This document shows, piece by piece, positions 3,260 through 33,445 of a stretch of DNA of 64,000 nt. The translations under genes and the position numbers were made by a program. Source of the stretch: Octopus vulgaris (taxonomy: Eukaryota). The notes below the pieces were generated by a model. It was not told the origin of the DNA, did no database searches, and saw only the letters and a program-made list of their open reading frames with translations. Position 1 is the stretch's first letter, and each line of letters starts with the position of its first letter. The stretch is taken from contig OX597817.1 in NCBI GenBank assembly GCA_951406725.2, positions 19,468,001 through 19,532,000 on the forward strand, given 5' to 3'.

Positions 3260-3622
3260 TTATCGCCATACTAATATGGCATTCTTATAAAAATAAGAAT
3301 AAAGCTGTCCGCTTATTAGCTCCATGAGGCCATCGCCTTAAGTTAGCTATTTGATACACAAACTGTATCCATATAACCTTCGAACAGTAGCTGCCGGTCA
3401 AGTAGTGTGGAGCGACTGACCTCCTTTGTTCGAAGGTTATATGGATACAGTTTGTGTATCAAATAGCTAACTTAAGGCGATGGCCTCATGGAGCTAATAA
3501 GCGGACAGCTTTATTCTTATTTTTATAAGAATGCCATATTAGTATGGCGATAACTATTATTTTCCGGGAACGCTGCCGTTGTTCTCTTTTAGAGAGACTT
3601 AGTAATTTTAATATTTCTATTA
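3260..3622. repeat. fold-back element: 127-bp inverted arms (3260-3386 / 3427-3553), 40-nt loop, in (TA)n
   Basis: TTATCGCCATAC...CTTCGAACA is the reverse complement of TGTTCGAAG...GTATGGCGATAA. Long (TA)n tracts lie on both sides. Confidence 0.9.
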
Positions 3623-4225
3623 TATATATATATATATATATATATATATATATATATATATATATATATATATATATATATATAAAATCTCTAATTATGT
3701 TAACAGTTTCAGCCAGATATTGTGACCAAGTCTGGCCAACTTGTAAATATAAGTTCTGAAGTATTATTTCCATGAAGCGTTGACTGACACACGCACACAC
3801 ACACACATACACACACACACACACACACACATACACACACGCTCACGCACACACACACACATATTTGTGTGAGTGTGTACGTGTATTTTAAACTATTTTT
3901 TATAAATCCAAAACAATACAATTTATTAAAAACTGCTAATGTATGTTTATGTTTTTTACTTTTATCTGGTATTTCAATATTTCAGCGTTAGTACACCTTC
4001 AGGAAATCTTTAGAGAAAACTTGTTGTTACCTCTTTTCTCCGAAGATTTCTTGACCCGTACTATTAATTTTCATAACTTGATTTGTTTTGGTTTAAAGCA
4101 ATATTTGAAAATACTTAGTAATTTAAATATATAGTTGTTCTATAAGTTGATTTGCTCAACCTTTCACGACTACAGAATTTTGTAGCTGTTTTGGTATGAA
4201 AATGACTTGCTCGGCTCAATGCATT

Positions 4226-4973
4226 CATTTATTACTTTATTGTACAAAGGGGACAAACATAGAGGGGGCAAACAAGGACATACACAGGGATTAAGTCAAT
4301 TACATCGACCCCAATGAGTAACTCGTACTTATTTAATCGATCCCGAAAGGATGAAAGGCTAAGTCGACCTCGGCGGAATTTGAACTCAGATTGTAGCTGC
4401 AGACGAAATACCTATTTCTTTATTACCCACAAGGGGCTAAACACAGAGGGGACAAACAAGGACAGACTTAGGTATTAAGTCGATTACATCGACCCCAGTG
4501 CATAACTGGTACTTAATTTATCGACCCCGAAAGGATGAAAGGCAAAGTCGACCTCGGCGGAATTTGTACTCAAAACGTAACGTCAGACGAAATACGCCTA
4601 CGCATTTCGCCCGGCGTGCTAACGTTTCTGCCAGCTCGCCGTCTAAATACCGCTAAGCATTTCGCCCGGCGTGCTAACGATTCTGCCAGCTCGCCGTCTA
4701 AATACCGCTAAGCATTTCGCCCGGCGTGCTAACGTTTCTGCCAGCTCGCCGTCTAAATACCGCTAAGCATTTCGCTCGGCGTGCTAACGATTCTGCCAGC
4801 TCGCCGTCTAAATACCGCTAAGCATTTCGCCCGGCGTGCTAACGATTCTGCCAGCTCGTCGTCTAAATACCGCTAAGCATTTCGCCTGGCGTGCTAACGT
4901 TTCTGCCAGCTCGCCGTCTAAATACCGCTAAGCATTTCGCCCGGCGTGCTAACGATTCTGCCAGCTCGCCGCC
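4226..4973 (-). mobile_element. composite SINE, family C: two bodies plus 7 tandem 55-bp copies of the 5' head
   Basis: Body GAGTTCAAATTCCGCCGAGGTCGACTTTGCCTTTCATCCTTTCGGGGTCGAT occurs twice (with variants). Head repeats start at 4602, 4657, 4712, 4767, 4822, 4877 and 4932. Flanked by the direct repeat CTCAATGCATT (4215-4225, 4977-4987). Confidence 0.85.
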
Positions 4974-5249
4974 ATACTCAATGCATTTATTTATACTGAC
5001 TTACTGAACTGCAATAATTGCCTTACTAATCTAGAAATACAAAGTTTCGTAATTTGGTCGTAATAATATGCACTATATACACTTCCAGCAATTACAAAAT
5101 TAACGACAGACAGTCACGCTTTTTCTTGGCACATAATTCTTAAATCTAAGTACTCTATGATGGTGTTAAACTTACCTGCAATATTGATTTATTTTTCAAG
5201 ATAGTGTAAAAATTTCGGCGCTAGCATATCCAAATATACTGGCCCGATA

Positions 5250-5468
5250 ACTTTGGTTTCAAATTTTGGCACAGAGTGAGCAGTTTTGAGACAAGTGTGT
5301 AAGTCCATTGTATTGACCCCAGTGCTCAACTGGTACTTATTTTATCAACCCAGAAGGGATGAAAGGCAGGGTTGACCGCAGCAGAATTTGAATTCAGACC
5401 GTAAATACAGACGAAATGTCGGCATGCATTTCGCCCAACGTACAAACGATGCTGCCAACTCAGCGCTT
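5250..5468 (-). mobile_element. diverged SINE family C copy
   Basis: Aligns by eye to the 4470-4640 body and head. Confidence 0.7.
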
Positions 5469-5639
5469 TAGAGGTCCCAATTATTGATGATAAACTTATA
5501 TACTTTACTAAACCACGTCAAATAAAGTTAAACATAATTTGAATTGAAATGAATGTTTATAGTGATAATGTTAAAAATCAAGTATTGTAAGACATTGCAA
5601 TTGATGTTTATACTCACACACACTAGTTTGATAATCAGG

Positions 5640-31130: not shown

Positions 31131-31303
31131 TCTTCGAAACACGCTGGAGTTGAACTAGGGACAGCTGATGAAGGGGATTTTTCCTTGTGTAGTTGTCTTG
31201 TACTCTGTTTTTTCGTTGTTAAAAATATGGTCCGTTCCATGCTGTTTTTACGTTTTCGTTTCTCGTTGAGTTCTACGTCTATTTGTGGTGTCCTGTACAC
31301 ACG
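31131..31303 (+). mobile_element. short PLE-type 3'-end fragment in (TA)n
   Basis: Non-repetitive insert between TA tracts, containing CTTCGAAAC...GCTGATGAAGGGG and a T-rich tail. Confidence 0.4.
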
Positions 31304-32685
31304 TATATATATTTATATATGCACGTATATATACATGTAGATGTAGGTACGTACATATATGTTTGTATGTATGCATATATTTTATTTATTACACACTATA
31401 TATATATATATATATATATATATATATATATATATATATATATATATATATATGCAAATTTATATTTTCCAGTGTATCATATGCCTCTGTTCGTGGGCGT
31501 ATTTGGCCTACGTAAGAGAATTAAGACGATATCGTTCTCTGCTGATATCTATCTCTATTGATATAAGTTATAATTATATGGGATTAGTAGAAAAATGGAA
31601 ACAAAATATTGCTATTTAATTTACTTAAATTATATGTTTGCTCGAAATACCTGCGATATTCTGAAGTTGTTTCAACAGAAGAAGCGATATATAATGGGGA
31701 TAAATTGAAAAATCAATACGTGTAAAACTTCGTTGGACAAATGATATAGAGTGTACACTGTCAAAGAGATTCTTTGTTGCATTTGATTTCCTGCCAAATC
31801 TCGACGGGTTGTACTGTGACTTATTTCTAGTCGCAGTAAATATAGATCGGAGTTACTCTAGTCGTTATGGCAGAGAAGACGTTTCAAAAGGAATCTAACC
31901 AGATTATGAGTCTGCCTGTATTAAACTCCAGTATTTCTCCAAACAGTATTAAATTTCTTTTATGTAAGCGGCGATCATGTTCATACAAATTTCATAAGAA
32001 TCGAAATATTTTACTATAATTCTCTTCTTTACAATCACAATAACGTAGCGAAGTGTAATATTATTTACACAGATTTTCCGTGGCTATCTGCACGTGTATT
32101 TCATGTAAGAGTCGTAGCTTAAGATATAGAATCAGAGACACGTCGACAATTTATTTCATAATTTGTTTCCTTAATGTAGTGTCTATATTCCATACAAGCT
32201 CATTGTTCTTCTATGGACGAAGGCCTAGGAAAGAACCTCTTTAACATAAATGTTGCTAAGGATTAACTGTTACACAATTACTTAAGCCTATATACTGGTA
32301 CAATTCAAAATTACTCACCATTAAAATTACTCACCTATAAAATAGCATACAAACGTCAACATGATTTGTTATATAACCGATGAAACAGTTTACATAGTCC
32401 TTTTCAAGACAGCGTAAATAGAACTTAAGTATGTTTGGTATTGGATGGGGAAGATCGTGCTTATCAACATTCTTAATTCAAACGCGCGCACACGTCGACG
32501 ACAGCGGTTTCATATGAAAGCCGTATCTTGCAAACGCGATGATTCTAAATTATATGACCGGCAATATTCAATGGGATATTAGTTCTCTGTGCATATATGC
32601 TTCCGAATGGGCATCCACACATATGTAAGTATATGGGCTTAAAGATATGTATATATATATATATATATATATATATATATATATA

Positions 32686-33098
32686 TAAATAATAATAAAT
32701 ATTAGGGAATGAATCCAAAATTACAGGGAAAAATCAGATTTAGGGTTAAATCCAATTTTATAGTAAAATATTATATAATATAATTCGAGACAAAACCACT
32801 ATTTTAAAACCAAACAAGGAAAGACTTAATCAATACATAAAATTTTAATATAAATTAAATAAACCACCACTACAAATGTTTCATGTCTGCTACCGACAAT
32901 CTTCAGGTGGATTTTCGATCTTCTAATCAGTATCAAATTTTGAAGTCAAAATTTTGACTTCAATAGAAGATTGTCGGTAGCAGACATGAAACATTTGTAG
33001 TGGCGGTTTATTTAATTTATATTAAAATTTTATGTATTGATTAAGTCTTTCCTTGTTTGGTTTTAAAATAGTGGTTTTGTCTCGAATTATATTATATA
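32686..33098 (-). mobile_element. HHR-bearing fold-back element: 133-bp inverted arms (32772-32904 / 32966-33098) in (TA)n
   Basis: Arms are reverse complements with one visible mismatch. The 61-nt spacer holds a 24-bp palindrome at 32940-32963. Confidence 0.85.
32867..32910 (-). ncRNA. minimal type I hammerhead motif
   Basis: Minus strand: CCAC CTGAAGA T TGTC GGTAGCA GACA T GAAAC ATTT GTA GTGG. Stem I CCAC/GTGG, stem II TGTC/GACA with a U-U at its base, GUA triplet. Confidence 0.7.
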
Positions 33099-33124
33099 TA
33101 TATATATATATATATATATATATA

Positions 33125-33445
33125 GAGGGGTAAAATATGAAAAATCAACGAAATGCATATTGCAGATAGAAAAAAGGCTATTTATGACAGGTAGTGACAA
33201 ATATATACATTTAGATTGACTGAGGTAGTAATACGAGTCATAAAGGTCATTATTATGAGATGATTATAAGATGATAATACTAATAAAGTAAGAGAACAAA
33301 ACGAACCAATTGGTTTACGCGAAGGCTATTCATCGATGAATAGCCTTTTTCTATCTGCAATATGCATTTTCGTTGATTTTTTCATATTTTACTCTTACAT
33401 TTCCACGTGTATTTTATATTTTCTTTTCGTAACATATTTCTACTA
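33125..33445. repeat. fold-back element with about 56-bp inverted arms (33130-33185 / 33336-33392)
   Basis: GTAAAATATGAAAAATCAACGAAATGCATATTGCAGATAGAAAAAAGGCTAT versus its reverse complement. 26-bp palindrome at 33322-33347. Confidence 0.75.

What the first reader, a model, noticed from the sequence alone, without database searches (positions are those of the whole stretch)
3260..33445. Recurring system: unrelated short inserts in (TA)n that share fold-back architecture and hammerhead motifs
Seen: at least eight inserts with no obvious mutual similarity (3260-3622, 12448-12891, 15102-15505, 15545-16021, 16929-17375, 31131-31303, 32686-33098, 33125-33445). They sit in or beside TA-rich tracts, show no obvious TSD or poly(A), and most have an asymmetric inverted duplication and/or a CUGANGA...GAAAC-palindrome-GUH motif. 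Three decayed PLE coding remnants lie in the same window. Established: PLE insertions commonly show an inverted partial terminal repeat and encode minimal HHRs. Inference: a diverse community of non-autonomous ribozyme retroelements uses PLE RT/GIY-YIG machinery that targets (TA)n. It would seed the genome with long hairpins, which are potential dsRNA substrates for ADAR editing or siRNA production if transcribed.
Basis: partly seen in the sequence, partly recalled or inferred. Interest (0 to 1): 0.75.

Follow-up and report, generated by a model that had tools for sequence, protein, structure and literature searches.

The report
Penelope fragments and ribozyme hitch-hikers
The eight inserts are copies of eight common repeat families, three of them cut-off ends of protein-coding Penelope-type jumping genes and five non-coding repeats that likely borrow such genes' enzymes; the mirror-image shape is a known mark of this group, and this window holds no more of it than the rest of the genome.

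Summary
The inserts are real, but they are not one class and the window is not special. Each belongs to a family with hundreds to thousands of genomic matches. Three (D 15545, E 16929, H 33125) are 3' ends of coding Penelope-like elements (PLEs). Four (A 3260, B 12448, C 15102, F 31131) are non-coding tandem units of retrozyme type. G (32686) is a short non-coding unit. Five of 8 are head-to-head fold-backs; 3 of 8 hold a complete hammerhead. In 600 kb of other genomic DNA, hammerhead motifs (18, against 0-1 in shuffles) lie upstream of (TA)n (15 of 18, background 28%), at about the window's density. The asymmetry is the known PLE 'tail': two fixed 3' ends, one per arm (18 of 19 in family A). 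Extras: family A 5' ends pile up just behind its predicted U3-A8 ribozyme cut, and E's terminal repeat starts with a tRNA-like head. No coding partner was found for A, B, C, F, G; ADAR and siRNA effects are untested. The scan reported this system before on other DNA of this genome.

The parts
3257..3620 (+). Family A insertion: inverted arm 3257-3386 (short 3' end), main arm 3387-3620 (long 3' end, tail 3558-3620). Family unit is a 363-nt tandem monomer with a U3-A8 hammerhead; this copy starts 1-2 nt behind the predicted cut.
12448..12891 (+). Family B: 1.1 copies of a 404-nt tandem monomer, no inversion
12649..12721 (+). Complete type I hammerhead motif of B (long helix II insert, palindromic helix III)
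13000..14530 (+). Old repeat with an inverted duplication; frame resembles a Hydra-type PLE endonuclease end (motif recalled, no Pfam hit)
15102..15505 (-). Family C: main arm 15102-15351 (short end), inverted arm 15348-15505 (long end, tail about 105 nt), 4-nt overlap at the joint. 579-nt tandem unit; only the 3' half of the hammerhead is in this copy.
15545..15742 (+). Family D copy 1 (older, 81% to reference), minimal hammerhead with C4 at 15613
15810..16021 (-). Family D copy 2 (95%), hammerhead at 15938; tail-to-tail with copy 1. D is the end of the long 3' UTR of a coding Neptune-type PLE.
16912..17387 (+). Family E insertion with 13-nt TSD: inverted arm about 16925-17056, tRNA-like head about 17069-17140, (ATA)n 17142-17205, body with decayed minimal hammerhead to 17374. 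It is the terminal repeat plus ORF start of a coding Penelope/Poseidon-type PLE.
22124..22219 (-). Decayed GIY-YIG-like stretch
   Evidence: tblastn E 5e-4; no Pfam hit
31133..31396 (+). Family F: 5'-truncated copy of a 767-nt tandem unit with two fixed 3' ends; only half-core hammerhead-like motifs
32690..33103 (-). Family G: main arm 32690-32945 (long end, tail about 78 nt), inverted arm 32966-33103 (short end); complete hammerhead at 32906; family 5' end is fixed
33128..33445 (-). Family H: main arm 33128-33335 (short end), inverted arm 33336-33445 (long end). 3' UTR of a coding Neptune-type PLE; no canonical hammerhead found.

Best explanation
The eight inserts are copies of eight unrelated, genome-wide repeat families, three being truncated ends of coding Penelope-like elements and five being non-coding units that are likely copied by such elements' enzymes. 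Inferred mechanism: the PLE endonuclease nicks both strands of an AT-rich or (TA)n target; the reverse transcriptase starts inside the RNA at two fixed sites that lie one 'tail' apart, one site per target strand; the two cDNAs stop at variable 5' points and are joined head-to-head through short overlaps or filler. One-sided events give plain truncated or tandem copies (B, F). Templates are likely multimeric or circular RNAs for A, B, C, F, some of them cut by the ribozyme, and read-through or 5'-repeat transcripts for D, E, H. Shown here: families, two fixed 3' ends, the one-short-one-long rule, coding extensions of D, E, H, motif and (TA)n enrichment. Inferred: the enzymology, the RNA forms, ribozyme activity and the trans partners.
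For: Two fixed 3' ends: A 57 of 66 arms (30 short, 27 long), 52 of these 57 run into TA-rich DNA; likewise C, F, G, H; B shows one end. Opposite ends on the two arms: A 18 of 19 joints with two canonical ends (6 further joints with one odd end left out), C 13 of 15 distinct inverted loci, G 22 of 23 (main arm chosen long by the query). In window copies C and H each arm holds sequence that the other lacks, so neither is a copy of the other. Joints in A: 15 of 25 overlap by 1-12 nt, 9 have 2-25 extra nt, 1 is blunt. Coding: H GIY-YIG above Pfam cut-off with a Cys linker and RT; D RT and GIY-YIG frames in 2 of 3 extended loci (Pfam E 0.0027, below cut-off); E RT above cut-off, head directly behind the endonuclease in 23 of 30 loci. 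Genome sample: 18 motifs in 600 kb, 1 in ten shuffles together; 15 of 18 with (TA)5 within 400 nt downstream against 27.6%. Literature: inverted 5'-truncated copy, one-sided tail and (TA)n bias (PMC8557442, passages); inverted pLTR, tail, 9-10 bp TSD (PMC3846280, passages); both strands cut and extended, two internal RT starts = tail (PMC11167929, parts 1-2 of 4).
Against: No coding partner with a shared 3' end was found for A, B, C, F, G among 28 endonuclease-bearing places in hand; one G copy joined to a Neptune-type RT is a single hint. PMC3846280 (passage) saw no cross-mobilisation between two PLE types in a rotifer. B has no inverted arm in 19 distinct loci and F in 28 of 30 loci. F and H lack a canonical hammerhead. 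B's 5' ends show no peak at its predicted cut. The descriptor was relaxed after family motifs were seen (one search found none), and 8 of the 18 sampled motifs are one family (D). Monomer folds of four motifs did not beat shuffles (z -0.9 to 0.4; only A z -2.0). Genome searches score only the 40 best candidates, so most samples favour long, young copies.
Confidence: 0.82

Rival explanations
1. Snap-back self-priming: one cDNA (or an antisense RNA) folds on a palindrome at its end and copies itself, which makes the inverted arm.
For: Proposed for rotifer Penelopes (PMC3846280, passage). Small hairpins sit at the 5' ends of G and E copies.
Against: Inverted arms often reach further 5' than the main arm (A: L011, L013, L014, L023) or carry the tail that the main arm lacks (C, H in the window); a self-copy cannot do that.
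Confidence: 0.12
2. All eight are one community of non-autonomous ribozyme elements that target (TA)n.
For: A, B, C, F are non-coding tandem units, G is non-coding; 6 of 8 families carry a hammerhead motif.
Against: D, E, H extend into RT and endonuclease frames; E uses AT-rich sites with TSDs. Short D and E copies could still spread as secondary non-autonomous units: many D copies begin near one position and head-only E matches begin at the head.
Confidence: 0.15
3. MITEs or other DNA-transposon derivatives that insert at TA.
For: Inverted arms and TA flanks; mariner-like elements occur in the window.
Against: Arm lengths vary from copy to copy, 5' ends are ragged, tandem monomers occur and many copies have no inversion.
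Confidence: 0.02
4. Fold-back artefacts of long-read sequencing or assembly at (TA)n tracts.
For: No read-level check of these exact joints was possible.
Against: Arms differ from each other (84-99% alike), end at family-specific points at many loci, and E copies carry TSDs.
Confidence: 0.02

Closest known systems
Truncated, inverted insertions of EN+ Penelope-like elements (Penelope/Poseidon, Neptune; PMC8557442 and PMC3846280 passages; Poseidon_Ac in vitro, PMC11167929 parts 1-2 of 4)
   Same: Head-to-head inverted 5'-truncated copy, tail on one end only, minimal hammerhead in the terminal repeat, ORF start inside the repeat and 9-13 nt TSD (E), Cys linker and (TA)n preference (D, H).
   Different: Tails here are up to about 110 nt (30-40 described). 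The near-strict one-short-one-long pairing is counted here. E's terminal repeat begins with a tRNA-like head; the passages read describe TATA/Inr-like promoters.
Metazoan non-LTR retrozymes (PMC7229834, part 2 of 6 and passages; bioRxiv 10.64898/2026.07.22.740005, part 1 of 5 and passages)
   Same: Non-coding tandem monomers with one type I hammerhead each (A 363, B 404, C 579 nt), dispersed arrays, proposed PLE dependence.
   Different: Word counts in those two texts show no discussion of inverted insertion, tails or (TA)n targets and no octopus. A has a U3-A8 core; C and F exceed the 150-450 bp range; RNA circles and cleavage are not shown here.
Minimal PLE hammerheads, including the U3-A8 variant of Schistosoma Cercyon (PMC4209133, parts 1-2 of 4)
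   Same: Extra base after position 9, palindromic helix III, short helix I; U3-A8 core in family A with a free position 7.
   Different: There the U3-A8 variant mostly occurs as single motifs; here it sits in a young tandem non-coding unit. D carries C at position 4.
tRNA-headed hammerhead SINE-like repeat Sm-alpha of schistosomes (recalled, not read)
   Same: tRNA-like head plus hammerhead in one short unit (E).
   Different: E's unit is the terminal repeat of a coding PLE and has PLE tails and inversions.

Membership tests
EN+ PLE (families D, E, H) | RT followed by C-terminal GIY-YIG endonuclease | tested here: met
   H: PF01541 26.3 bits over cut-off 22.6, RVT_1 E 1.6e-5. E: RVT_1 32.1 over 29.6, endonuclease motif read. 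D: GIY-YIG E 0.0027 below cut-off, RT frame.
EN+ PLE (families D, E, H) | Ragged 5' ends, fixed 3' ends, inverted 5'-truncated copy, one-sided tail | tested here: met
   E and H. D shows one 3' end and no head-to-head arm in the 28 of 30 loci that mapped.
EN+ PLE (families D, E, H) | Hammerhead in the terminal repeat | tested here: inconclusive
   Met for D and E, not found for H.
EN+ PLE (families D, E, H) | Clade placement by RT phylogeny | not tested
   Neptune-type (D, H) rests on the Cys linker; Penelope/Poseidon-type (E) on its absence, TSDs and a recalled N-terminal motif.
Non-LTR retrozyme (A, B, C, F, G) | Non-coding head-to-tail monomer of a few hundred bases | tested here: met
   A 363, B 404, C 579, F 767. 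Not met for G: no tandem period in 30 loci.
Non-LTR retrozyme (A, B, C, F, G) | Type I hammerhead in each monomer | tested here: inconclusive
   Met for A, B, C (and G); not met for F. F is therefore not filed as a retrozyme.
Non-LTR retrozyme (A, B, C, F, G) | Self-cleavage and circular RNA | not testable with these tools
   No raw RNA reads were served. Indirect only: 5'-end peak in A; circular folds beat shuffles for A (z -7.9) and C (z -5.7), not B (z -0.9) (15 shuffles).
Non-LTR retrozyme (A, B, C, F, G) | Shared end with an autonomous PLE partner | tested here: inconclusive
   None among 28 endonuclease-bearing places in hand; not a genome-wide search.
tRNA-derived SINE (E) | tRNA-like head with A and B boxes at a fixed 5' end | tested here: met
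   Box-like motifs read from the sequence and 5' ends at the head; ARAGORN calls no tRNA in 24 loci.
tRNA-derived SINE (E) | Unit independent of a coding element | tested here: not met
   Head follows the endonuclease in 23 of 30 loci and the body runs into the ORF.
MITE | Fixed symmetric terminal inverted repeats and uniform length | tested here: not met

The most novel reading that the evidence does not exclude
The genomic copies record the full PLE reaction in vivo: one enzyme dimer primes both target strands from two fixed RNA sites, on templates that include ribozyme-cut RNA (family A, U3-A8 core, 5' ends at the cut), and one coding PLE family (E) is driven by a tRNA-type polymerase III promoter in its terminal repeat, with its sense strand purged of T4 terminators.
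Probability: 0.3. Interest if true: 0.72.

Novelty: new member of a known kind. Interest (0 to 1): 0.45.

Why it matters
How PLEs make their inverted, tailed insertions and what their ribozymes do are open questions: in vitro work found two RT start sites and no need for cleavage (PMC11167929). Young families with hundreds of near-identical copies let both be tested by counting ends. At about 30 motifs and 150 short inverted repeats per Mb, these elements are a large possible source of hairpin RNA in this genome, but that is a property of the whole genome and nothing here shows transcription or editing.

Tried and rejected
Rfam scans: no hammerhead. First descriptor too strict, no hit. Pfam on 27 read-through frames of the window: no PLE domain; RVT_1 and zf-RVT hits at 49-55 kb belong to LINE-type remnants. 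E as a stand-alone SINE: rejected. D as a fold-back: rejected. Window as a hot spot: rejected. Expression: no RNA holder listed; contigs of runs guessed to be RNA hold B as a 434-nt contig, which a tandem in DNA would also give, and multi-copy mapping makes depth and base changes uninformative. A 66-nt query for an unbiased A sample found nothing; the 133-nt query picked copies by one variant base and was not used for end statistics. The query covered E's head rather than its body and was used as a head sample. Region 35380-36120: one weak other match only. Partner search among loci in hand: none. Searches for a polymerase III-driven PLE in print: terms gave two papers each, none on this by title or abstract start; not read. 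Supplements of all papers, which may list octopus PLE consensus families, were not seen.
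Full report
Setting. The window lies at G000:C4:19468001-19532000 in a 2.8-Gb genome; its repeats look cephalopod-like (recalled, and so called in earlier notes).

Each insert is a high-copy family. First-look candidates in G000: A 758, B 627, C 2047, D 3469, E 2785, F 1766, G 1547, H 1611. 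These are not copy numbers, and only 40 were scored each. An exact 21-mer of A occurs 1,062 times. The best copies of A, B, F, G are 98-100% alike, so these families are young. No two family references resemble each other.

What the families are. A, B, C, F are head-to-tail units of 363, 404, 579 and 767 nt. G is a unit of about 260 nt with a fixed 5' end and no tandem period in 30 loci. H continues in 8 of 30 loci into an RT, a Cys linker and a GIY-YIG domain above the Pfam cut-off. D continues through a long CA-rich UTR into RT and GIY-YIG frames in 2 of 3 loci that I extended. E first looked like a tRNA-headed SINE. So 3 of 8 inserts are ends of coding elements.

Hammerheads. Rfam finds none, and my first descriptor found none. 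A relaxed type I descriptor, set after family motifs were seen, finds 4 in the window (B, D twice, G) and none in 50 shuffles. Family references of A, B, C, D, E, G match; F and H do not. The window copy of A begins at monomer position 130, behind the predicted cut at 128/129.

Controls. In 60 stretches of 10 kb at round coordinates on 30 contigs the descriptor finds 18 motifs; ten shuffles gave 1 in all. 15 of 18 have (TA)5 within 400 nt downstream, against 27.6% of random places (P 1.4e-6); 8 of the 18 are family D, so they are not independent. The U3-A8 descriptor adds 3 hits, all A-like, against 4 in ten shuffles. Short inverted repeats number 94 in 600 kb and 9 in the window; 18 of the 94 have (TA)5 on both sides against 3% by chance. 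The pattern is real and genome-wide, and the window is average.

Anatomy of the fold-backs. I mapped 37 A insertions on contig C1, taken in order from the exact-match list (5 further C1 sites and the C2 sites of the list were not fetched). Of 66 arms, 57 end at one of two points, near 303 or near 363; 52 of these 57 run into TA-rich DNA. Of 25 head-to-head joints, 19 have two canonical ends, and 18 of the 19 pair a short with a long end. C gives 13 of 15 distinct inverted loci and G 22 of 23, with G's main arm chosen long by the query. B has no inverted arm in 19 distinct loci, F one in 2 of 30. Arms often hold sequence that the other lacks, which needs two templated events, not a snap-back. 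E differs in target: TSDs of 9 nt or more in 14 of 27 two-armed copies, 0 of 27 in shifted controls. D in the window is two tail-to-tail insertions, 80% alike.

Mechanism. Craig et al. describe the inverted 5'-truncated copy, the one-sided tail and (TA)n preference (PMC8557442, passages). Arkhipova et al. describe inverted terminal repeats with tail and 9-10 bp TSD and propose self-priming (PMC3846280, passages). Frangieh et al. show a PLE protein cutting and extending both strands and starting RT at two internal sites that bound the tail (PMC11167929, parts 1-2 of 4). The counts here fit one start site per target strand, with the two cDNAs joined at their ragged ends. That the non-coding units use PLE enzymes is inferred from shared anatomy and from the retrozyme papers (PMC7229834; bioRxiv 10.64898/2026.07.22.740005). 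I found no partner among 28 endonuclease-bearing places. One G copy is joined at its 5' end to a truncated Neptune-type RT whose endonuclease is not on the other side, which may be a template jump.

Two extras. First, A 5' ends: 7 of 66 fall at 131-134, five at 131. Against a uniform expectation of 1.5 for positions 127-134 this is P 0.001; for long arms alone, which carry no selection, 3 of 33, P 0.04. The window was set from the predicted cut after a first look, and RT stalling at helix I would give a similar peak. A second peak at 167-172 (10 of 66; 6 of 33 long arms, P 1.5e-5) may be a hairpin stop or a transcription start; the latter idea comes from earlier notes on other units (e1-8672266) and is untested. 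B shows no peak at its cut, and Frangieh et al. found cleavage dispensable. Second, E: head-only matches begin at the head, and the sense strand has no run of four T in 1,890 nt of one copy and 2 in 20,838 nt of 30 related copies, where about 2 per kb are expected by base shuffling (0.3-2.5 by triplet shuffling); other coding elements in hand have 3-8 per 1.1-2.3 kb. This is one family and so one observation; it fits polymerase III transcription but does not show it.

Hairpins and editing. Predicted uninterrupted helices are 128 bp (A) and 94 bp (G), 15-36 bp for C, D, E, H. Whether they are transcribed, edited or diced was not tested.

Verdict. Known PLE biology plus new members of the retrozyme kind, already noted by this scan on other DNA of this genome. 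A 2026 repeat annotation of an octopus genome lists recently active Penelope families and many unclassified SINEs; the two parts of three that I read do not discuss ribozymes (PMC13282606). Interest 0.45.

Noticed in passing
window 28798-30087: Mariner-like element with 37-nt terminal inverted repeats and two long transposase-like frames (29041-29505, 29447-29932).
   Followed up: no
window 49680-55530, also 42300-44700 and 55600-59400: LINE-type remnants on the minus strand; RVT_1 and zf-RVT hits at 49.7-55.5 kb, broken by a (TAT)n tract at 55533-55615.
   Followed up: no
window 11275-12412: Insert in a (TA)n tract with an internal 116-nt perfect tandem (11556-11811); not among the eight; it abuts B.
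   Followed up: no
window 4590-4971 and 39265-39783: Tandem arrays of SINE-like pieces: 55-nt unit x6.9 and 260-nt unit x2.
   Followed up: no
L352 (G000:C16) about 7130-8760: 5'-truncated Neptune-type RT, 67% like H's, joined directly to the 5' end of a full G copy; possible template jump.
   Followed up: partly
L325, L326, L341: E copies in which a truncated ORF start is followed at once by a new tRNA-like head; possible jumps between two RNAs.
   Followed up: partly
family D loci L091-L120: About 16 of 28 mapped D copies begin within 883-894 of the reference, some 105 nt upstream of the predicted cut; partly a query effect.
   Followed up: partly
L243 7384-8360: Older A subfamily (88%) with the same long/short head-to-head layout and a covarying hammerhead.
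   Followed up: partly
   Followed up: no
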